Below are positions 7,100 to 49,917 of a DNA stretch of 64,000 nt, piece by piece. The number at the start of each line of letters is the position of its first letter. Within the stretch, counting starts at the first letter, position 1. Both the position numbers and the translations under genes were made by a program. This DNA is from Eledone cirrhosa. Taxonomy: Eukaryota. Under the pieces are notes generated by a model. That model searched no databases, was not told the DNA's origin, and saw only the letters and a program-made list of their open reading frames with translations. The stretch spans positions 170,252,001-170,316,000 of the forward strand of contig OZ024742.1 of assembly GCA_964016885.1 (NCBI GenBank), read 5' to 3'.

Positions 7100-7924
7100 T
7101 CATGCTTCAGCAACTGTGAGCGTGAAAAAATATTTCCGAAAGTCATGGGAACTATGCTGTTTTCCGACTTTGTGGGCATGCCCACGTGTGTTAGACACAT
7201 GGAAATCAAAAAGGTACTTAGGGTTGTTGTTGGCAAGATGGTTAACAATTTTGTGGGTGTTTACCAAGTCAGTTGCCAGACGTCGGAGCTTCAATGTATC
7301 CATGCCCAGGGAAGCAAGGCGTTCAGAGTATGGTAGATGCCTGATGGAGGGTATTCGCTTGGTTGCACATCTCTGAACAGTTTCCAGGCGGTCAATGTTC
7401 TGAGCAAGATAGGGGTTCCAGACTGGTGATGCAAATTCTAAGTGTGGCCGCACCATAGCCATGTACAGCCTTAAATAGATAGCTGGAGAGCGGCTGACAA
7501 AAGTCTTGCTGAGTGATGCTAAGACACCCTCGGCCCTCTTGACAATTTTAGAAACGTGCTTCGTCCAACGCAAATCGCTGCTGACCGTAATGCCCAGGTC
7601 ACGTTCACAAGAAGACTTCTTGATATTAGTGCTGTGGAGGGAGTATGTGGATGCTGGGTTTTTACTCCCAAAATGCATGGTGGTGCACTTGTTCACAGCT
7701 AGCTTGAGTTGCCAGTCTGAGATCCATTGTTGCATTGTGTCCAGGTCAGACTGCAAGCAAGATCTATAGTGTTCAGGATCTGTCCTTTTTATCTGAAGGT
7801 ACAGCTTGTTGTCATCTGCATACTTTAGTACTGTGGCATTCTTTAAGTTGGCATCTATGTCATTAATATATGCCACAAACAAAAGGGGGCCAAGAACAGA
7901 TCCCTGTGGTACACCAGATAACAT
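7100..7924 (-). pseudogene. CR1-type reverse transcriptase fragment (longest open segment)
   Basis: GVPQGSVLGPLLF, YADD, DLGI and RPHLEF motifs; the upstream frame is broken. Confidence 0.9.
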
Positions 7925-8234
7925 CTCATGGTGAGGAATGCTGTCCCAGAACCGTGACTACCTCTCTTCGACTGAGAATGAAGGACTTCAACCAGTTAAA
8001 AAGATCATCCTTCACACCCATTGCAGAGAGTTTTGCCATAAGCCTTTTGTGTGGCACAGAATTGAAAGCTTTCGCAAAGTCAAGGTAAACAACATCCACC
8101 CATGAGCCGCCATCAGTGATCCAGGTGATGTCTTCAAGAAACTCGATAAGTTGATCACAGCAGCTGGAGTTGAGGATAAATCCAAATTGCGAGGGCCGGA
8201 TAAGACTGTGAGAGTTCCAGAAGTTCCAAAGTGT

Positions 8235-8753
8235 TTATCTGACACAGGATTCCATCAGTTTGGCAATGCAACTAGTAAGACTGACTGGACGATAGTTCAT
8301 AGGTGATGGGCAGTCACCCTTTTTGAACAGAGGAATGACACTGGCAGTTTTCCACTGTTCTGGAGTAGCACCGTTGTTCAGACAGAATTGGAAGAAGCGT
8401 GATAGCTGGTGCAGAAGGAAGTACCCACCACGTTTAAGAAGCAGGTTGCGTTTATTTTTTAGGTGACGTCGCAGCATTGCAGGTGTAAATTCCATAGTTG
8501 TAATAGAATCTGGTGTCATAGGTGGTGGAGACGGTACACTCTGGTCTTCAATAGTGAAAATGCCTGCATAGCATTCAGCAATGAGCTCTGTGCATTCCTT
8601 GGGGTCGTCAATAACCTGGCTTGTGTGGGGTTTGTGAAGAAGACCAACTGGAGAGTGAGGCCTCTGCTTTGAGTGAGCATACTTCCAGAACACCTTACTG
8701 TCAGGGCTGGTTGCTATGCGCTGCTCAAATTGAAGCACTGCCTTTTTTGTCAC
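8235..8753 (-). pseudogene. CR1-type ORF2 fragment (linker plus start of RT)
   Basis: KVFWKY, WKTASVIPLFKKGD, NYRPVSLTSCIAKLMES. Confidence 0.85.
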
Positions 8754-9055: not shown

Positions 9056-9646
9056 ATGTAGGCGGGAAGCTGCTTGAATTGGTTGAGGACTTCCTGTATT
9101 TGGGAGCAAAGATTGGGAATACGGAAGATGATGTGGTTGAGAGGAAGAGCAAAGCCTGGAACGGTGTGCCACAGCTTGAGATTGGTGTGGAAGTCGGAAA
9201 ATCCGGCTCTTCATTGCTGTAGTGGAGTCTGTGCTGCTGTACGGGTCTGAGACTTGGACACTGACCAAGAAACTCACTCCGATGGCGGATGGGTGCTACA
9301 CGAGAATGCTGAGGATGGCTCTGAACATTAATCAGTATACACTGAGGATGAAAAACTCAGAGCTGTATGGGAGCCTCCCAAAAGTCAGCTCAAAAGTGAC
9401 ACAGAGGAGACTGAGGTTAGCTGGACATGCTCACCGACATCCAAAGTTGACATTGCACTCAGTGCTCCTGTGGGAGCCCCTACATGGACACACTGGAAGA
9501 GGAAGACCAAGGTTAACGTATGTTGATGCCCTAAGGACAGATACTGGTCTGTTGGAGACGCAGGACATGATGGCAGCGATAATGAGGGACAGAGACCGCT
9601 GGAGAGAACTCGTCCATGGATCTCGGGGAATTTTACCCGCCCGAGA

Positions 9647-9648
<2 letters not shown>
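9054..9648 (+). mobile_element. RTE-clade LINE, 3' segment
   Basis: LELVEDFLYLG, ESVLLYGSETWTLTK, RMLRMAL, RLRLAGH, GRPRLTY, DRDRWR are typical RTE C-terminal motifs; ends at (AT)n at 9649-9680. Confidence 0.9.
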
Positions 9649-9683
<35 letters not shown>

Positions 9684-9889
9684 TTAGTATTTTGGCTCTT
9701 CAGGGAACTAATTTGTCATTTCTCTGTAAAACAAAAAGTAAAGGTAGAATACTTAAATGTTGATAATTCAGGTGTGGAAATTGGTTTGATTATAGCAATT
9801 TGTATTTTCTTTGTTCAAAACCATTTATTTGTTTATTTGATTCAAACTATATCTAGGCTGTAAATTACTATATTTATGATAGCATATCT

Positions 9890-22849: not shown

Positions 22850-23770
22850 TGAAAACGGGGAGAAAGACGATTAGTAGGAAGAAAAATATTTTTTTTTCCC
22901 TTTTTGTTTCTCTCTCTCTCTTTTCTGGGTTAGAAAATGATTAAAACGAAATGTTTTACTTTGTGTGAAGTGTTAAGGTATTAGTTGATTTATTTATTAT
23001 TTAACAATGGCATTTATTTATCTATTTATCTATTTAATTATTGTCTATTACCGGTTTCAGCATTTATATGCATTATCAAATGATAGTGAAATGTAAATGT
23101 TTGATTGTTTGTTGCAGTTTTAGATTGGTCCAATTTTTAGAGCATTAAGTAGAGGTTGGAATTTGTTAATGAAATATGTTTCCTTATTGGTACGTTGGAT
23201 GAAAGTAGCGTTGTCTATGAATTTGTAAATGGGGAAAATTTTAAAGTTTGGATGTTGGTTGTGAGCACAATTGGCGATATGTTCACTAAATGCAATCTTT
23301 CTGTATTCCTGTATTTTATGGACGGTCATACGTTGACGGAGGCTGTCTTTTGTCTGTCCTATGTAATGCTCTTGACAACCTGAGCAGGTCAAAACATAGA
23401 TAGGTTTTCAGATGCACATGTAAAGTTGTTTAACTGTGAATCGCTGTCCTTGTTTAAAATGGAATGTTGAACCTTCTATTAGATTTATGCATATGCCATA
23501 GGTAGGCCTTCCGCATTTTGTTACTGTAGGGTTCATTGTGAGGGTTTGTTGGATTTTGGTTTGTGTGAGGATGTTTTTTATGGATTTAGGTTGTCTTTTG
23601 CTCTTTATGATGTTGTGTGTTTGGAGGATTTTGTTCATTCTTGGGTCTCTTTTTAGTAAAGGAATGTTCTGGAGGATGGTGTCGAATGCCTCATAAGAGA
23701 GAGAGAAACAAAAAGGGAAAAAAATATATTTTTCTTCCTAATAATCGTCTCTTTCTCCCTGTTTTTATAT
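22850..23770 (-). mobile_element. Truncated Penelope-like element (Cys-rich linker plus GIY-YIG endonuclease) with inverted termini, in (TA)n
   Basis: KCGRPTYGIC, TCSGCQEHYIGQT...LRQRMTVH...SEH...KETYFINKFQPLLN in ORFs 23408-23638 and 23120-23392 (frameshifted). 22850-22921 is the reverse complement of 23696-23770. TA runs flank both sides. Confidence 0.85.
23045..23086 (-). ncRNA. Decayed minimal type I hammerhead ribozyme in the PLE 3' region
   Basis: Minus strand: ctat-cat-TTGATAA-t-gcat ataa atgc-t-GAAA-ccgg-TA-atag. Palindromic stem III (ACCGGT), two core substitutions, on the sense strand just after the ORF. Confidence 0.5.
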
Positions 23771-30750: not shown

Positions 30751-33365
30751 CTGGTAGATAGTATCAGCAATGGAAACATTGTTTCCTTGGTCTGATTTGA
30801 TGAGGTTTACCCCACTCGACATGTGATTAGGCATGGCTGAGTTGTTAAGTTTATTTCACAATTATGTGATCCCAGGTTCAATCTTATTGCTACACATTTT
30901 AGGTAAATATTATTTACCAATGTCTTGGATTGATCTAAGTCATATGAGGAAAACTGGGGAGAGAGAAACTGTGTAGAAGCTCATCAGATGCATTATTACT
31001 GTACCTGTAAGACAAAAGTCCAGCAGTGTCACATTGATTTGGCTTGAGAATTATGTTAATGATACATGTTAAAACGAAAAATACTGAGCTACTTAAAATT
31101 TAACCATTTTGATATCACCCTGGTTTTATGATAAATAGCTGACTATTTCAAAATGTTCATATTCTATTAACCTTTTAGCATTTAACCTGGCCATATCCAG
31201 CCAAAATTCTCTCATCTCTCTCTGTTCAACTGGTCCCTCATATTGATGTTAAGGTATTGTTCTCAAAATAAATAATATCAATCTCATAGATTCAATATTA
31301 TGAAAAATAATTATGTGAGATAAAGCCTGTACTGCAAAAATACAATAGTAAATATAGAGTAATGTAAATACTAAATTTACTTAAGAAATTTTTGTTAAAT
31401 ACTGTTTCAAACATTAGCTTACTAATGAAAAGGTTAGTTATCTCATAAAATTCTTAAAATTAGTTGGTACATATATTTCACTAGAAATAGGGTAACAAAA
31501 GAGTTAATACAAGATGGATTGTGTCTGTAATTCAAAGGTTCATCCTTGTTACATATTGTGTCACACTAATTTGATTTCAGAATGGCATTTAGGGTACATG
31601 TCTCCTTACATATTCACAAGTTGGATGTTCAGTTGATTCAAGAAACGAATTCTCTTCGTTGAAATTGATGGAGCCTCTATGGTAATTTGACATAATCAGT
31701 CAAGCAAAACATGGCTGACACTGGTAAAAGATTGTGATCTGCCGTGAGAAATTATTATGAATTCAGAACCTGATCTTTATTGGTTGAAAGAGGGAGTTGT
31801 AATAATATGTAATAACCAAAGCTTAAGGGGTTCAAAGGTCAGTTTGCTTTTGTTATTGTTTATAATAAAGTTGCTTTCTTTAAAGATGAAAGATAGGGAT
31901 GGGACTTAATGATAGAATGTAAATTGAATGAAACAAAATAGGTCATGGGATATACAATTGTTGTCTGAAAGAAATTGATTTGCCTATCTGATGAAAAACA
32001 GATAGCAAGACATTGATTATCATAATATAGACATTACTCTAGGATCCTGGGCACCGAGACAATAATAATAATAATGATAATAATAGTAATAATAATGGAA
32101 GAGTAAAACAAAATAACTCTCCTGATGTTTTCATGAACAATCATATTTACAGCATAAAAACTTTGCATAATGGGAAATTAGTGAATCATCTATTTTGGGG
32201 AATAGAATGAAAATATCTCGCATGTAACAGTTATACTTATATGTGTGCATGTATGTGTCTCTACATTAGCTAGGTTGTTAACACTTAACATCCTATACCA
32301 TAACACATGCAGTCCCATTAGCAAAATATTCTCAAAAACTACAAAACAGCTCTATGACTGCATTATATTAAAAATGAAAGTGTTCACCCTAATACTGCAA
32401 ATTTTCACAATGATCTGTCCACTAGTAAAGATATAAGCATTTGAATAAACAAACTTGTTTCAAAATATTTTCTGCTAAACCATTACAGGATGTTTAGAGT
32501 AAATCTTATCTTTAGACTTTTTATATTTTCTGATGATCTTTGGAGCCTATATTTCTACACATATAAATAACATGTTTAAGCTTTAACCCTCTCGATACCA
32601 AAGTGTCTGAGACTGTTCCTGGTTCTACAATACTAAGCTGTTTGTTTTAAAGTGTTTACTATTTATATAGAATTTTCATACATAATTTTATGTAAGAATT
32701 TTTATGTTCTAAACACTAGCTTAATAATGGGAAAGATAATTATTTTAGTAAATCCTTCCATATTCTTAAATATTTTTCCAAATTATTTGAAAATCATAGG
32801 CAGTATCTTTCATTGTATGTAAGAACTGTTATGTTCAAAACACCAGCTTAATGAGAAAGTTGGTTATGTTACTAAATCTCTCTAAATTCTTGGTTATTTT
32901 CAGAATTATTTGAAAATCATTGGCAGTGTCTTTCATTAGAGATATGGTAACAAAAGAGTTAACATCACTCTTTAATAGTATACTTGACAACCCGAGAAAA
33001 CAACAATAGCGAGTTGTTTTGTTGAGGGAAATGAATAAGATGAACTTTGCAGTGTTAACAACTTAACAATGTATATTGTCCCAACATTAACACTAATTTC
33101 TGAAACACAGACATAATTAGTTTTTATACACTGCCTAGCTATTTACATTTCAGCATATTCCTTACAACCATATTAATACAGTCAGTCTAGGTATTTATAA
33201 TTTTAGTAATGGAATTTCTCTCACATTCATATCATCATCATCATCATCGTCTAATGACCACTTTCCCTGCTAGCAAGAGTTGGACGGGTATACATAGATA
33301 AAGCGGGGTTACTGATCTCAGGGACAGGCTGGGGGTTTGTATCTCGATTATTTACGGTCTCTCTC

Positions 33366-33434
<69 letters not shown>

Positions 33435-33533
33435 TGTCCTACACCATCTTATTTTTGTGAGCTGTACACAGCTTACAAGAACACAATGGTGTAGAACAGA
33501 ACAAAGGAAAGATACAAAATAACTACAAAAGTA

Positions 33534-33574
33534 GTCATTGAGGAGGTCACAGAATGTGATGAAAGAGTTTTGAC
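33534..33574 (+). ncRNA. Minimal hammerhead ribozyme motif (C3 mutated)
   Basis: gtca-TTGAGGA-g-gtcaca gaa tgtgat-GAAA-gagt-TT-tgac. Confidence 0.55.
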
Positions 33575-33615
33575 AATCAACAAAAACTAGACAACCATCT
33601 AGTTATTAAACTAAC

Positions 33616-33655
33616 CAACTGAGGAGGTCACAGAATATGACGTAAGAGTTTTGAC
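33616..33655 (+). ncRNA. Minimal hammerhead ribozyme motif (GAAA mutated to GTAA)
   Basis: CTGAGGA-g-gtcaca gaa tatgac-GTAA-gagt-TT-tgac. Confidence 0.45.
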
Positions 33656-33809
33656 AATCAACAACTAGACAACCATCTAGTTATTAAACTAACCAACTGG
33701 GAGTTTATAATAAATTGAAGTGAGATTTAACAGGTGTGTGTTTTTATTGACAGCATGACCCTCCCAAAGTATAACAATATATATATATATATATATATGC
33801 ATACACACA

Positions 33810-33887: not shown

Positions 33888-35098
33888 TATATGTCCAGCC
33901 CATGCAAGCATGTGACAATGGACCTAAAATGATGAATGATGATGCTGATAAGTGGTTATGTCTAGGTAGCTACTACAATGCAGGTGGGGTTGTAAATATT
34001 AAGGCAATAAAATCGGCATGAAAATAATTAAGAATTTTAAAGGATTTAGAACATAACTTAATAAAGGTTTGTTTTTAGATGAATATAAACATTTAAACAT
34101 AAATGATTTTAAAATCATTTTGAAAATAAAGAATTTGAAAGGTTTTAGTAATATAACTGACTTTCTCAATTTATCTTGTGTTTGAAAAATAACTTAGTAA
34201 ATGTTCATACATAAAATGATGATAGAAAGTTTTCAGATGAAAATAAACATTTTAAAACAAGCAATTTCATTTCATAGATCTGAGGGGGTGAGGATCAAAA
34301 GAGTTAAGTGAATATGATAATCTTTCTCTCAGTATTGGGGTCTGTTTTCATTATTCAGATATTTAAATCATCTGAATCCTGAAGCTATTCTAAATCTTTA
34401 CTACTTTCTCCATCCTTACTATATTCAGGAATTTCATATACTTTTCTACTGTTTAGTATTGTTTTCCTCTTTTCCTCTCCTTATGTTTAATCTCCAAGCC
34501 CACCTTTCTGTTCCTCCCTACTTTCAACATTTTCCTGTTCTCCTTTACTGTTGACTCGATCTTAGCATTCCACCATTTGCTCCCAATCATGACCCCAAAA
34601 CTTGGTTTTGTTTTAAAGATGATCAGAGGAGAGAGAGGGAAGTACCTATGATATTTGCAGGGTCTCAAAGACTGGTAAGATTGATGTAGTTAATGTCCAG
34701 GCATGAACATTTGTAGGAGAAATTTTGGTAGTGGAAGATTTGCTGCTGCTGTCCTAGGTTGTTGTCGTTTTTGTCTGATCAGTTATCAGTTTCCAGGGCC
34801 CACCATGAGGAGGTTGAAAAACATGGGCCCTAGGTTAGGGTAAAATATTTAATGAAGGGCCTGGCAGGGTGTCAGACACTCTTCTACATTGTTAAAATAT
34901 TCAGTTTCTTTCATGTATTTGACTTGTGCAGAATCCTTTACAAAGTACTGCTCCACAGTCACAAATTTCTTAACTGTTCTTCTTTAATCTTTTCATTACC
35001 ATACTTCATGATTTTCAAATAATTTTGAATATAGAGAATTTGGATAGATTGTGTAATAACTAAATTTCTCATTATTAAGCTGGTGTCCGGAGCACAAA

Positions 35099-35327
35099 TT
35101 AACCCTTTAGCATTTACATTACTCTATATTTACTATTGTATTTTCACAGTAAAGGCTTTATCTTACATAATTATCTCACATAATATCGAATCTACGAGAT
35201 TTTGATGTTATTTATTTTGAGAACAACACTTTAATATAGGTATGAGCAGTCAGTTACAGCCGGTTTGAACAGAAAGAGGTGAGAGAATTCTGGCCGGATA
35301 TGGCCGGTTTAAATGCTAAAGGGTTAA
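35099..35327. mobile_element. piggyBac-like MITE P1 nested in a P2 copy
   Basis: TTAA|ccctttagcattt...aaatgctaaaggg|TTAA; P2 sequence continues on both sides. Confidence 0.85.
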
Positions 35328-35385
35328 TGAAGATTCTTACATAATATTACTATAGAAAGTTTTTTTTAGATAGATGTAAACATGT

Positions 35386-35850
35386 TAATCCTTTTGTTAC
35401 TATATTTTTAATGAAGGACACTGTATAGAATTTTCAAATAATTTTGAAAGTAATTAAGAATTGAAAGAGGGTTAGAATATAACTAAATTTCTTGTTTGAA
35501 ACATAACTTAAAATAGGTTCTTACATAAAATTATGATGGAAGGTTTTTAGATATAACCACTTTAACCCTATAGCATTTAAACCAGCTGTATCTGGCCAGA
35601 ATTCTCTCACCCCTTTCTGTTCTGTCCAGCTGTAACTGGCCACTCATACCAACATTAAGGTATTGTTCTCAAAATAAATAATATCAAAATATCATAGATT
35701 CGATATTATGTGAGATAATTATGTGAGGTAAAGCCTTTACCATGAAAATACAATAGTATATATAGAGTAATGTAAATGTTAAAAGGTTAAGATAGTTTTG
35801 TATCATAGAACCAGAAACGGTTTCAGGAAGTTTGGTATGAAAGGGGTTAA
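35386..35850. mobile_element. P2 MITE interrupted by a P1 MITE at 35562-35790
   Basis: Outer ends ttaatccttttgttac and ggtatgaaaggggttaa; inner ends ttaaccctatagcattt and aaatgttaaaaggttaa. Confidence 0.8.
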
Positions 35851-36083
35851 GGTTTAGCTGACATTCCACACCTGAAATATTTTTGTTTACTACCACTGTC
35901 TTCTTTCTGGTTACTCTATTATTGTAGCTGAATATTAGGCAACTAATTGGCTAGTTGGTTTTCTAAAGGTAGTGATATACATATCTATATTAGTCATGTC
36001 ACATAATCACTGAACTTGATCAGTTGAATACTTCTCTCATATACACTTGCATGCACTCATCTAACTATCTGAGTGTTCATAGC

Positions 36084-36301
36084 TTAACCCTTTAGCATTC
36101 ACATTACTCTATATATATTATTATATTTTCATGGTAAAGGCTTTACCTTGTACAATTATCTCACATAATATCGAATCTATGAGATTTTGGAAATATTTAT
36201 TTTGAGAACAATACCTTAACATCAGTTTGAGTGACCAGTTACAGCCAGTTTCAACAGAAAAAGGTAGAGAATTCTGGCCGGTTTGAACATTAAAGGGTTT
36301 A
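36084..36301. mobile_element. piggyBac-like MITE P1 (also 31167-31384 and a terminal fragment at 1-19)
   Basis: Same TIR and internal sequence as 35099-35327. Confidence 0.75.
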
Positions 36302-40033: not shown

Positions 40034-40080
<47 letters not shown>

Positions 40081-40198
40081 AGGTGAGTTTTATTGTAGAA
40101 CAATAAAGCAATGCAAATATCGGATAAGTAGCACTCAACAGTTTATAGGACTGGAGTAAAAATAATATAAAATCAAAAGATGGTTAAGAGTTCCATGT

Positions 40199-40267
40199 AT
40201 TTTATTATGCGCATTTCAAAAACAAATATCATCATGAGATGTTATTTGCGTTCTCATCAGATAAAAT
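40199..40267 (-). ncRNA. Type I hammerhead ribozyme (intact core)
   Basis: Minus strand: attttat-CTGATGA-gaacgcaaataacatc tcat gatgatatttgttttt-GAAA-tgcgca-TA-ataaaat. 7-bp stem I, long stem II, palindromic stem III. Confidence 0.85.
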
Positions 40268-41163
40268 AGGGAGACATGATATGAAGCTTAAAAAACACTT
40301 GTGAGCAGTGAAGTGTTAAATCAACATGAAAAATAAAATAAGATGGATATATAAGATTAGAAAAAAGGAAAGGAAGGGGGGAAGGAAAAGGTGAGGAAGA
40401 AAGAATATAGATAGAAGAAAAAAAAAATAATAAGGAAAGGATGATAGAGGAGGAGTATAAGAGAGGAGGAGAAAATGAGTGAGAGAGAGATAACCTTTAA
40501 TACTGAGAAACTCTGTCTCACAGAGAAAAATAATAAAAAAACCGTTGTAAGATAATACATAATTTAAAAATTAAGAAATTAAAAGTTAATGAGGTTTATG
40601 AATGGTGATGCTTATGATTAAAGAGAAAGGAATTAAGAATACTATTTATGTGCGAAAAGGCATTTATTAAAATGTATTATTCAAATAAAATATATTAAGA
40701 AGATAAGGTTAAATGAATTATGAACTTAGAGAAATTAATTAGGGTCCAAGTTTGTTTCTATATATTGTAATAGGAAAAAGTAAATAATAGATTTAATAGG
40801 AGCACGGAAGGAGAGAAGAAAGAAAAAATTCAAGGAAGAAAAAATATATAGCGTCAAAAAAATATGTTTACAAAATTTCTCTAATGGTAATATTAGTATA
40901 TATTAAAAATAAAAATGGGTATGGCCGAGAATATAAGGAAAATGCTATAGTGAGTTATAAGGTGAATTAAGAAGTAATTGAGAAGTAAAAGTTGCAGATT
41001 AAAGATTAGAAATTAAAAAAGAAGAAAATTAGGGGACCGCTAACGACATAGTATGAGTAATATTGTATAATATACTGAAATAAGGTAGAAAGATGGGTAT
41101 ATTTATAAAATATATAAAAGTGTTTCAGAAAAAAAGATTTTAAACTAATTAGGTAGTAAGATA

Positions 41164-41550
41164 TTAGCTGTATACTTTATGGAAAGTTCTATGGGATTTA
41201 TGCAAGCAGAGCGAAAATAAATCCGTACGTCTATTTATTATAGAATTAAAATTAGAGATAATGGTAAATTTCTCCGCTAGGCAGAGATTACATGTTCAAG
41301 ATAGGGAAGAATTAAGGTAAGGAGAGGCGTTGCAAACCTTCCTCCAAGAAATGTTGTAGTTAATATTTTTGTCCTTTAAGGACCATATGAGTTCTGAGAG
41401 TGCTGTGTTAGTTCTTTTAAGTTGGTATTTAAAAGAGGAATTGTGATTATAAAATCTTGCTTTAAAGTAAGTGGAAGTGGAACCAAAATAGGTAAAAGAA
41501 TTGGTACCAGTTATAACCTTACATTCATACACTAAATTTTTATCAAGCAA
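41164..41550 (-). pseudogene. PLE GIY-YIG endonuclease C-terminal domain with one in-frame TGA
   Basis: LVYECKV...TYFGST...FKARFYNHNSSF...TALSELIW. The frame continues past the TGA (41296-41298) as TCNLCLAEK...INRRTDLFSLCLHK to a TAA at 41164. Confidence 0.85.
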
Positions 41551-42205
41551 TTGACAGACTTGATTGGAATCTTTATTTTGAATTCTTTAAATCGGAAAAT
41601 TCCTCAACTTCGCGGTGGAATATATCGTGACGATGCCCTTTTTGCTGTCTTAAACTGTAACTTAGTTAACCTTAATATTATTAAGAATAATATACTTGAT
41701 CTATTTAAGCAACATAACCTAAAAATTGAATTTGAAAACAACGTCAAACTAGCTAACTTCCTGGATATATCCCTTAATCTTGACACCGGCCTATACTATC
41801 CTTACCATAAAGACAATGAGAATCTAAATTATGTTAATTTTAAATCTAACCACCCTATTAACGTTAAAAATGCTACAGTTAGTAATGTTGAAAAAAGAAT
41901 CTCAAATCTATCTTCTAATAAACTTATCTTTGACGCTAAAGCCAATTATTACAACAATGCGTTTTCCAGAGCCGGTTATCCTGACAAAATTAAATACAGT
42001 AAAGAAACCAATCATCGAGGAACTTATAGTAATATAGTTACTTATAAGCATTCCAATAACATAAAGAAAAGACCTAGATATAAAAATATGATTTGGTACA
42101 ACGCTCCTTTTTCTCTATTATTAATATTCCTAAACTATTTTTTAGGGCCTTAGATAAATGCTTCCCTCCTTCACATATTTATAGTAAGATCTTTAATAAG
42201 CAACT
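41551..42205 (+). pseudogene. PLE reverse transcriptase C-terminal half plus linker
   Basis: GIYRDD, NFLDISLNL, SNHP, RISNLSS, AGY, IWYNAPFS, then frameshifted LDKCFPPSHIYSKIFNK. Confidence 0.9.
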
Positions 42206-42888
42206 TTTTTTAATTTTTTATTTTTTTTATTTCTTATCTTTAATCTGCAACTTTTACTTCTCAATTACTTCTTAATTCATCTTATAACTCACTATAGCAT
42301 TTTCCTTATTCTCGGCCATACAAATCTTTATTTTTAATATATACTAATATTACCATTAGAGAAATTTTGTAAACATATTTTTTTGACGTTATATATTTTT
42401 TCTTTCTTCTCTCTTTCCGTGCTCCTATTAAATCTATTATTTACTTTTTCCTATTACAATATATAGAAACAAACTTAGACCCTAATTAATTCCTCTAAGT
42501 TCATAATTCATTCACCTTATCTTCATTCACCTTATCTTAATATATTTTATTTTAATAATACATTTTAATAAATGCCTTTTCGCACATCTTATTAAACCCT
42601 TCAATATATAAACCTTAAATAAATAGTATTCTTAATTCCTTTCTCTTTAATCATAAGCATCACCATTCATAAACCTCATTAACTTTTAATTTTTAAATTA
42701 TGTATTATCTTACAACGGTTTTTAAAAATATTTTTTCTTCTATCTATATTCTTTCTTCCTCACCTTTTCCTTCCCCCCTTCCTTTCCTTTTTTCCAATCT
42801 CATATATCCATCTTATTTTATTTTTCATATGTTGATTTAACACTTCACTGCTCGCAAGTGTTTTTTAAGCTTCATATCACGTTTCCCT

Positions 42889-42957
42889 ATTTTATCTGAT
42901 GAGAACGCAAATATCATCCCATGATGATATTTGTTTTTGAAATGCGCATAATAAAAT
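42889..42957 (+). ncRNA. Type I hammerhead ribozyme (intact core)
   Basis: attttat-CTGATGA-gaacgcaaatatcatc ccat gatgatatttgttttt-GAAA-tgcgca-TA-ataaaat; predicted cleavage after A42950. Confidence 0.88.
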
Positions 42958-42984
42958 GCATGGAACTCTTTTAACCATCTTTTG

Positions 42985-43023
<39 letters not shown>

Positions 43024-43171
43024 ATGCTTTGGGAGGGTCATGTTGCCAATAAGAAACACACGCACCAGTCGCTTTCACTCCAAATTATTGTAAATTAAAT
43101 TTATAAATTTAAGAATTTATAAATTTCCGATTGGTTGGTTGGTTCCATAACCGGACGGTTGTTCATATATT

Positions 43172-43214
43172 GTCAAAGTTCTTTCGTCACACATTCTGTG
43201 ACCTCTTCAGTGAC
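43172..43214 (-). ncRNA. Minimal type I hammerhead ribozyme motif (intact core)
   Basis: Minus strand: gtca-CTGAAGA-g-gtcaca gaatg tgtgac-GAAA-gaac-TT-tgac. Confidence 0.7.
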
Positions 43215-43282
43215 TGGGGATTCTTTTCTATGTTTCGAGCCTCTCCATTGTTCTGTCCTACGCCATCTTGTTTTTGTGACCC

Positions 43283-43323
43283 CATTGAAGAGGTCACAGA
43301 ATGTGTGACGAAAGAACTTTGTC
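43283..43323 (+). ncRNA. Hammerhead motif, mutated copy
   Basis: ca-TTGAAGA-g-gtcaca gaatg tgtgac-GAAA-gaac-TT-tg; C3 changed and stem I truncated. Confidence 0.5.
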
Positions 43324-43532
43324 AATATATGAACAACCGTCCGGTTATGGAACCAACCTATCAACCGGAAATTTATAAATTCTTAATTTTATAAATTTTA
43401 TTTATAATAATTTGGAGTGAAAGCGCTGGTGCGTGTGTTTCTTATTGGTAACATGACCCTCCCAAAGCATAACAATATCGGTTTCAACACACGTTTTCAG
43501 ATAAAGAATCTTGCTAAACAAATTCAGAAACG

Positions 43533-43609
<77 letters not shown>

Positions 43610-43610
<1 letters not shown>

Positions 43611-43790
43611 GATATTAACAAATGGAAACTATATTTATAAAACTATATTTATTTCATTATACATATTTCAAGTATAAATATAGTTTCCATTTGTTAATAT
43701 CGTATTTTTACTCCAAATATTTGTTGAGTGCTTTATATCAGTTATAAAAATATTTCCTTGTTGTATCCCAACAATTTAAATAGAACTTTT
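43610..43790. mobile_element. Short PLE terminus with a 30-bp perfect inverted repeat, between (TA)n tracts
   Basis: 43610-43639 pairs with 43673-43702. The loop holds the 3' half of a hammerhead (minus strand cttGAAAtatgtaTAatgaaat). The tail tttttactcca...gttgagtgc resembles 40131-40162. Confidence 0.65.
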
Positions 43791-49719: not shown

Positions 49720-49917
49720 TTAATTTAAAAAATGTCATAACTGATATAAAGCACTCAACAGGAGGCTCCAACCGTTAAGGTTGTCTTTTTTTCCGGGTAT
49801 GTCAATATTTATTTATAAAACAAATCTGTATTTTATCTGATGAAAGCGCACCATAATATGCCTTGGCCCTTGAAGTATATGTATAATAAAATAAATATAG
49901 TTTCCATTTATTAATAT

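What the first reader, a model, noticed from the sequence alone, without database searches (positions are those of the whole stretch)
43020..43474. MITE-looking 455-bp hairpin that is actually two inverted ribozyme cassettes
Seen: near-perfect ~190-bp inverted arms with no coding capacity. Each arm contains (C/T)TGAAGA-g-gtcaca/tgtgac-GAAA-gaac-TT, and the left arm is closed by a gtca/tgac stem I. The left arm extends about 65 bp further into sequence also present at 33435-33510, so the asymmetry fits inverted PLE pseudo-LTRs rather than transposase TIRs. Inference: a non-autonomous retro-element that repeat annotators would probably misclassify as a DNA MITE.
Basis: partly seen in the sequence, partly recalled or inferred. 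Interest (0 to 1): 0.7.

Follow-up and report, generated by a model that had tools for sequence, protein, structure and literature searches.

The report
Mirror-image Penelope retrotransposon stump, not MITE
This MITE-looking hairpin is two head-to-head end pieces of a known kind of jumping gene (a Penelope-like retrotransposon) sitting in a TA repeat; one arm keeps an intact, predicted self-cutting RNA motif, and the short size likely arises because copying stopped at the start of the element's own RNA.

Summary
The hairpin is real (197-bp arms, 94% alike) but runs to about 43538: a 60-bp one-sided tail was missed. It is the short form of an endonuclease-positive Penelope-like element (PLE), probably Neptune-type. 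The same arm lies directly downstream of an RT + GIY-YIG ORF in this genome (94% identical in L128); 39 of 97 position-sampled arms run back into that ORF; all 30 hairpin copies have different inversion points; ends fall at two AATAT sites next to TA runs. The left arm holds an intact minimal type I hammerhead of the published PLE kind; the right arm's copy is broken. Cleavage is untested, and no genomic footprint of it was found (0 of 97 ends at the cut site). Short copies are not a separate non-autonomous lineage. Of most interest: 23 of 58 shorter arms stop in one 15-nt window just upstream of a YY1-like motif, the likely transcription start, which would explain a MITE-sized class as 'strong-stop' copies of the mRNA's 5' end.

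The parts
42990..43015 (.). (TA)n target run, left flank
   Evidence: sequence
43016..43278 (-). Tail-less pseudo-LTR copy (left arm), read outward on the minus strand; inner end 103 nt upstream of the predicted ribozyme cut, inside the pile-up of 5' ends; outer end at AATAT site 1
43261..43270 (-). YY1-like motif CAAGATGGCG just downstream of the inferred transcription start
   Evidence: position; likeness to the L1 YY1 site from PMC2912911; binding untested
43172..43214 (-). Intact minimal type I hammerhead motif: 4-bp helix I, CUGAAGA, unpaired G, 6-bp helix II, GAAA, 4-nt loop, UU; predicted cut between 43176 and 43175
   Evidence: features from PMC4209133; cleavage untested
43279..43282 (.). 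4-nt filler at the head-to-head junction
   Evidence: junction gap +4
43283..43478 (+). Tail-bearing pseudo-LTR copy (right arm); inner end 37 nt upstream of the predicted cut, so helix I is lost; broken hammerhead core at 43285
43453..43538 (+). Start of the PLE ORF (ATG at 43453, first 28-29 codons); in the tandem copy L131 this frame runs on into the RT ORF
43479..43538 (+). 60-nt one-sided tail between AATAT site 1 (43474-43478) and AATAT site 2 (43534-43538)
43539..43601 (.). (TA)n target run, right flank
   Evidence: sequence
33434..33780 (+). Older-subfamily relative: short inverted piece, two decayed tandem hammerhead remnants (33539-33626, 33620-33703), tail-less end in (TA)n

Best explanation
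The hairpin is one short insertion of an endonuclease-positive Penelope-like retrotransposon, made of two head-to-head copies of its pseudo-LTR in a TA run, likely laid down when the element's enzyme cut the TA run and primed reverse transcription twice on its own RNA. Shown: the arm is the 3' UTR end, hammerhead, 5' UTR and ORF start of an RT + GIY-YIG element; outer ends are fixed at two AATAT sites 60 nt apart; inner ends differ in each copy; the two arms of a copy share source-lineage variants. Inferred: the two cut target ends each prime at one AATAT site (one gives the tail, the other not), probably helped by AT pairing; both cDNAs run toward the RNA's 5' end and are joined head to head. 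Inferred: because these sites lie only about 270-330 nt from the transcription start, priming on the mRNA's 5' copy gives cDNAs that cannot be longer than that, hence a MITE-sized class. Inferred: the hammerhead is a weak, dimer- or protein-assisted ribozyme, and uncleaved RNA was the template.
For: ORF link: with only the last 136 bp as query, 6 of 30 loci (96-100% identical) carry PLE ORF directly upstream on the same strand; L128 has a 392-aa frame with GIY-YIG above the Pfam cut-off (E 1.3e-5) and then the arm at 94%; 39 of 97 position-ordered arms run at least 390 nt upstream, about 150 nt or more into the endonuclease frame; 5 of 5 long two-armed copies examined hold PLE ORF between the arms. 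Junctions: 30 of 30 and 16 of 16 distinct. Ends: 43 at site 1, 43 at site 2, 11 other, of 97; 75 of 94 arms with a recognisable end are followed by ATATAT, window background 0.7%. Both end sites are the same 7-mer, the only two in 4.15 kb of L131. One source: arms of a copy agree at 442 of 490 diagnostic cells (90%) against 57% in 2000 shuffles, maximum 68%. Start site: 23 of 58 shorter arms end at -112 to -98; no simulation of 5000 under each of four nulls reached 23. Hammerhead: 2 differences in 43 columns between young and old subfamily majorities (position 7 and loop 3) against 17 of 60 upstream and 43 of 100 downstream columns, gaps included; distant relatives L230, L227, L228 have the same layout with other helix sequences 217-295 nt after the ORF match. 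Literature: inverted copy plus one-sided tail (PMC8557442; PMC3846280); two RT start sites define the tail and uncleaved RNA is the main substrate (PMC11167929); transcript starts inside the pseudo-LTR (PMC2377424).
Against: No RNA evidence: no RNA holder was listed, so the start site is inferred only from genomic ends. The 23 ends come from 20 insertions (three give both arms), one (L182) looks like an internal deletion, and the sequence just upstream is AC/AAAT-rich and could itself stall RT or break alignments. 0 of 97 ends lie within 3 nt of the predicted cut. The tail is 60 nt, longer than the 30-40 nt in print. In the one PLE studied in vitro, priming needed no homology to the target, so AT pairing here is unproven. 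The short/long tree without tail columns needed 16 label changes against about 19 shuffled (37-52 of 500 as low): slight clustering is not excluded. No fully intact ORF was seen; L128 and L131 have frameshifts or stops. Some of the 59 arm pairs may be neighbouring separate insertions.
Confidence: 0.9

Rival explanations
1. A non-autonomous retroelement lineage (SINE- or retrozyme-like): solo pseudo-LTR copies are transcribed from their internal promoter and moved in trans by the PLE enzyme; the hairpins are its products.
For: Many short copies share one 5' limit (23 of 58); PLE pseudo-LTRs hold an internal promoter (PMC2377424) and can act in trans (PMC3846280); slight, non-significant clustering of short arms.
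Against: No variant separates start-site-ended from ORF-linked arms (38 columns, smallest p 0.23); one short and one long row are identical; junctions all differ; 0 of 45 tail arms in the sample ran on into tandem ORF and no tandem array of the unit was seen there.
Confidence: 0.07
2. Same element, but the inversion arises by fold-back self-priming of one nucleic-acid strand instead of two target-primed cDNAs.
For: Proposed for Adineta elements with palindromic junctions (PMC3846280); near-symmetric junctions occur here (4 of 14 in the 3'-selected set within 10 nt; L167, L171, L203, L215); arms share variants.
Against: In 20 of 40 scored copies, this one included, the longer arm lacks the tail and the shorter has it; a strand without the tail cannot template one. 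Both outer ends are fixed at AATAT sites. Later trimming at the junction could blur this test.
Confidence: 0.15
3. A DNA MITE with long TIRs, moved by a DDE transposase into TA sites; the hammerhead look is inherited or chance.
For: Long near-perfect inverted arms, fixed outer ends, TA flanks, at least 4557 exact matches of a 34-mer of the arm.
Against: One-sided tail, variable centre, solo arms, arms continuous with RT/EN ORF, PLE ORF inside 5 of 5 long two-armed copies. A TSD cannot be read inside TA runs, so that test is inconclusive. No transposase query was run.
Confidence: 0.02

Closest known systems
EN+ Penelope-like elements with C-terminal GIY-YIG, Neptune/Nematis type (Craig et al. 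2021, PMC8557442; passages read)
   Same: RT then CX2-5CxxC linker then GIY-YIG with CCHH; 5' truncation; inverted copy; one-sided tail; hammerhead in the pseudo-LTR; microsatellite bias
   Different: Tail 60 nt instead of 30-40; Neptune versus Nematis not tested by phylogeny against named references
Pen2a_Av and related Adineta vaga Penelope insertions (Arkhipova et al. 2013, PMC3846280; passages read)
   Same: About 200-bp pseudo-LTR holding the first codons of the ORF, tail extends the codons, inverted shorter pseudo-LTR, solo pseudo-LTRs
   Different: There a TSD is visible and solo copies are ascribed to recombination or deletion; here thousands of short copies stop at an inferred start site
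PAc, Poseidon of Anolis carolinensis (Frangieh et al. 2024, PMC11167929; main text read)
   Same: Two internal RT start sites inside the ORF's first codons define the tail; uncleaved RNA is copied
   Different: PAc start sites are not homologous to the target; here both are the same 7-mer holding ATAT, matching the (TA)n target
Minimal type I hammerheads of metazoan PLEs (Cervera and De la Pena 2014, PMC4209133; results and discussion read)
   Same: Helix I 4 bp, helix II 6 bp, unpaired base between 9 and 10.1, G10.1-C11.1, complementary 15.2-16.2
   Different: Loop 3 centre is AA or AG, not a Watson-Crick palindrome; activity untested
Non-LTR retrozymes (bioRxiv 10.64898/2026.07.22.740005; abstract, introduction, part of methods read)
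   Same: PLE pseudo-LTR-derived, non-coding, type I hammerhead
   Different: Retrozymes are head-to-tail tandem repeats; this is head-to-head, and the two motifs are on opposite strands
L1 5' inversion by twin priming (Kojima 2010, PMC2912911; passages read)
   Same: Two target ends prime on one RNA; microhomology or filler at the junction; YY1 motif just downstream of heterogeneous starts
   Different: In L1 the two cDNAs copy different parts of the RNA; here they copy the same part and give an inverted repeat
DNA MITEs (general knowledge, recalled)
   Same: Short, high-copy, inverted arms, TA flanks
   Different: Asymmetric tail, variable centre, arm continuous with RT/EN ORF

Membership tests
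EN+ Penelope-like element | Single ORF with RT and C-terminal GIY-YIG endonuclease upstream of the pseudo-LTR | tested here: met
   L128 392-aa frame, PF01541 E 1.3e-5 above cut-off, arm follows at 94%; RT piece only weak on PF00078 (E 0.0028, below cut-off); 67% to O. vulgaris RT-domain protein P0001
EN+ Penelope-like element | Partial-tandem pseudo-LTR holding the ORF start | tested here: met
   L131: tail runs on into the next ORF; ATG equals window 43453
EN+ Penelope-like element | Inverted 5'-truncated copy with variable junction | tested here: met
   30 of 30 and 16 of 16 distinct junctions
EN+ Penelope-like element | One-sided tail | tested here: met
   60 nt, longer than the published 30-40; two copies (L107, L122) have it on both arms
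Neptune/Nematis type | CX2-5CxxC linker and CCHH motif in the endonuclease | tested here: met
   C266, C271, C274 and C293 invariant, C298, H336, H341 nearly invariant in alignment A1; definition
Neptune clade (as against Nematis) | RT phylogeny with named references | not tested
   No named reference sequences were held; the supplements of PMC8557442 were not opened. Neptune is preferred from the linker and (TA)n bias and recalled motifs
Naiad/Chlamys | N-terminal endonuclease | tested here: not met
   EN is C-terminal
Minimal type I hammerhead (left arm) | Core CUGANGA/GAAA/UH with helices I and II, bulge at 9/10.1, G10.1-C11.1 | tested here: met
   (helix II pairing 0.95-1.0; helix I 0.9 alone, 0.55 in longer context)
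Minimal type I hammerhead (right arm) | Same | tested here: not met
   helix I 2 bp, C3 changed
Minimal type I hammerhead | Self-cleavage | not testable with these tools
   no assay; 0 of 97 genomic 5' ends within 3 nt of the cut
Non-LTR retrozyme | Head-to-tail tandem units each with a hammerhead | tested here: not met
   head-to-head here; no such arrays among the 97 arms
DNA MITE | Fixed internal structure and symmetric termini | tested here: not met
DNA MITE | Constant target-site duplication | tested here: inconclusive
   TA runs on both sides hide any duplication
DNA MITE | TIRs shared with a DDE transposase element | tested here: inconclusive
   5 of 5 long two-armed copies hold PLE ORF; no transposase query was run

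The most novel reading that the evidence does not exclude
This family gives a genome-scale record of how PLEs prime: two identical ATAT-bearing sites inside the ORF's first codons pair with the two cut ends of a (TA)n target, and when this happens at the mRNA's 5' copy the cDNAs run off the cap, producing thousands of MITE-sized 'strong-stop' hairpins. A share of what is annotated as TA-targeting MITEs in cephalopods would then be PLE strong-stop products, and these hairpins would be a large source of double-stranded RNA.
Probability: 0.4. Interest if true: 0.55.

Novelty: new member of a known kind. Interest (0 to 1): 0.3.

Why it matters
As an object it is an ordinary footprint of a known class. 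Its value is practical and mechanistic. It shows a PLE product that mimics a DNA MITE at high copy number (4557 exact matches of one 34-mer), which bears on repeat annotation and dating. The family also offers a ready test of the open question of how PLEs form inverted pseudo-LTRs, tails and microsatellite bias, named as unresolved in PMC8557442: defined priming sites, an inferred start site and near-intact ORF copies are all at hand.

Tried and rejected
Cleavage footprint: 3 of 29 tail arms in the 3'-selected set ended 1-3 nt from the predicted cut, but 0 of 97 did in the position-ordered sample; rejected. Rfam at E<=1 gave no hammerhead match. The neighbouring RT fragment at 41536-42153 as partner: rejected; no DNA match to the arm and P0001 has no tblastn hit in the window. 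Pfam on short decayed ORF pieces was mostly blank. The first short/long tree held tail columns that made a false clade; redone without them. No RNA holder listed; this is no evidence on expression. Contigs of runs X1 and X3 (one sample, kind not on record) cover the stretch with many variants and joints but cannot show ends or strand. Of 9 distant loci, 2 had no downstream DNA, 1 had 280 nt, L222 and L224 showed no core, L229 only a degenerate one. The shared 5' limit among the 30 hairpins was not used, since the query selects for it. PMC12602865 held nothing relevant. Paper searches showed no description of this family, of cephalopod PLE hammerheads or of a strong-stop origin of short PLE hairpins; subscription papers, Repbase/Dfam and supplements were not seen, so absence from print is not shown.

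Full report
Observation. The inverted repeat is real: 43016-43212 and 43283-43478 align at 94.4% over 197 columns, between two TA runs. A search of the window's own genome (3.0 Gb) gave 4109 candidates, 40 scored; an exact 34-mer of the arm occurs 4557 times, the reversed control 0 times. In the 30 best copies a further 60-nt segment follows one arm only (30 of 30, partial in L021 and L024), so the element ends near 43538, not 43474. The relative at 33434-33780 is an older subfamily copy. The closest named protein is from Octopus vulgaris (67-69%), which suggests a cephalopod host; that is an inference.

The partner element. Old-subfamily loci led to an inverted piece resembling an endonuclease end (L055); with it as query, a match to the arm or its 5' extension was found in 29 of 30 loci, in most of them about 130-150 bp downstream on the same strand. 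To avoid selecting for hairpins I then queried with the last 136 bp only: 6 of 30 loci (L101, L103, L104, L108, L110, L116) carry ORF directly upstream. L128 holds a nearly whole element: RT pieces, a 392-aa open frame with GIY-YIG above the Pfam cut-off (E 1.3e-5), a 3' UTR, then the arm at 94% identity to the window. L131 is a tandem in which the tail runs on into the next ORF; its ATG is window 43453, so arm end plus tail are the first codons, as in Adineta Pen2a (PMC3846280, passages). The linker cysteines and the CCHH residues are conserved, which by PMC8557442 (passages) means Neptune or Nematis type; Neptune is my preference and was not tested by tree. No fully intact ORF was seen.

Junctions and ends. 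All 30 hairpin copies have different pairs of inner ends, and so do the 16 two-armed copies among 29 of the 3'-selected set. For an unbiased sample I took the first 100 listed places of the 34-mer on contig C1, fetched 98 and dropped one duplicate (L161), leaving 97 arms. Of these 39 run at least 390 nt upstream into the endonuclease frame; 43 end at AATAT site 1, 43 at site 2 and 11 elsewhere; 36 of the 58 shorter arms have an adjacent inverted partner. 75 of 94 arms with a recognisable end are followed by ATATAT. Five of five long two-armed copies examined (3.6-7.1 kb loci) have PLE ORF between the arms. The 455-bp hairpin is thus the small end of a size continuum. A TSD cannot be read inside TA runs.

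The hammerhead. The left arm, minus strand 43214-43172, has a 4-bp helix I, CUGAAGA, one unpaired G, a 6-bp helix II opening with G-C, GAAA, a 4-nt loop with complementary outer bases, and UU. These are the features of PLE minimal hammerheads in PMC4209133 (results and discussion read), which cleave weakly and only as dimers or with an extended helix III. My descriptor found this one hit in the window and 1 hit in 30 shuffles; 53 of 103 young and 7 of 45 old arms pass; the right arm fails. Young and old majorities differ at 2 of 43 ribozyme columns, the free position 7 and loop 3, against 17 of 60 and 43 of 100 flanking columns (gaps counted). Distant relatives at 27-28% protein identity show the same layout with other helix sequences: L230 passes the descriptor, L227 and L228 (near copies) fit by eye with 3-bp helices; 3 of 9 loci, 2 lacking downstream DNA. 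Against activity in making copies: 0 of 97 5' ends lie within 3 nt of the cut, in line with PMC11167929 (main text read), where uncleaved RNA is the main substrate. The two motifs are on opposite strands, so a transcript carries one at most, and a read-through of the whole hairpin would pair the arms and mask it (inference).

Mechanism. In PMC11167929 two internal RT start sites define the tail. Here both end sites are the same 7-mer, its only two occurrences in 4.15 kb of L131, and hold ATAT; I infer that the two cut target ends prime there, perhaps by pairing. The arms of a copy share diagnostic variants (442 of 490 cells in 59 pairs, 90%, against 57% shuffled), so both come from one source. 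In 20 of 40 scored copies, this one included, the longer arm lacks the tail, which simple fold-back on one strand cannot give. 23 of 58 shorter arms, from 20 insertions, end at -112 to -98 relative to the cut; no simulation under four nulls of 5000 each reached that. This window lies a few to about 17 nt upstream of CAAGATGGCG, like the YY1 site at L1 nucleotides 12-22 that sets heterogeneous starts (PMC2912911, passages), and Penelope starts inside its pseudo-LTR (PMC2377424, passages). I read it as the transcription start: priming at the mRNA's 5' copy of the sites yields cDNAs of at most about 330 nt. The window's left arm (-103) is such an end. This step is inferred; low-complexity sequence just upstream is an alternative cause, and there is no RNA evidence.

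Non-autonomous lineage? Start-site-ended (23) and ORF-linked (39) arms differ at none of 38 variable columns (smallest p 0.23). The tree without tail columns needs 16 label changes against about 19 shuffled (37-52 of 500 as low), with one identical short/long pair. The hairpin is best seen as a dead product of the autonomous family, though some trans-mobilised solo copies are not excluded.

Novelty. The architecture, tail, ribozyme type and microsatellite bias are all in print. The family itself and the strong-stop reading were not found in six searches; a 2026 O. vulgaris repeat annotation lists Penelope-like and MITE classes without mention of hammerheads (passages). Supplements, Repbase and Dfam were not seen. 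Two earlier notes of this scan reached like readings on other loci; they are not independent evidence. Verdict: new member of a known kind, interest 0.3.

Noticed in passing
window 40080-42993: A second, unrelated element 25 bp left of the hairpin: long inverted repeats (about 40165-41031 / 42211-42993, 84-95%), an extra ~85-bp outer segment on the left, TA runs on both sides, a 205-aa RT-like frame at 41536-42153 and a canonical-looking type I hammerhead at about 42890-42960 (+) with a long helix II and palindromic loop. Pfam and the homologue search were blank; the Atlas gave HTH_animal clusters at 0.96. Likely another PLE family in the same TA nest; the RT motifs are recalled.
   Followed up: partly
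window 43609-43790: Small self-inverted piece between TA runs (43609-43703), with matches at 49737-49917; by eye part of it resembles the neighbour's outer segment, but BLAST did not report that match.
   Followed up: partly
window 23408-23737 (-): 109-aa frame with PLE-like thumb/linker motifs (recalled); Pfam blank.
   Followed up: partly
window 35099-35790 and 36080-36265: Further long inverted repeats (229 nt at 88%, 186 nt at 85%) with relatives at 31280 and 63584.
   Followed up: no
window 34761-34831 (-): Weak Rfam match to an HDV-like ribozyme, 32 bits, below the gathering score of 44, E 0.042.
   Followed up: no
window 7100-8753 (-) and 9180-9863 (+): Decayed LINE-like RT frames, by recalled motifs CR1-like and RTE-like.
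   Followed up: no
G000 C1226:48411-60146: Four near-identical hairpin copies spaced 3-4 kb apart, probably a tandem segmental repeat and not separate insertions.
   Followed up: no
L131 5169-6419, L128 3019-3723, P0001 1-85: The ORF's N-terminal part holds a long Thr/Asn-rich low-complexity stretch, recalling the Asn-rich inserts of Adineta Penelope ORFs.
   Followed up: no
L153, L154, L182: Copies with internal deletions that remove part of the hammerhead or the region upstream of it while both flanks stay.
   Followed up: no
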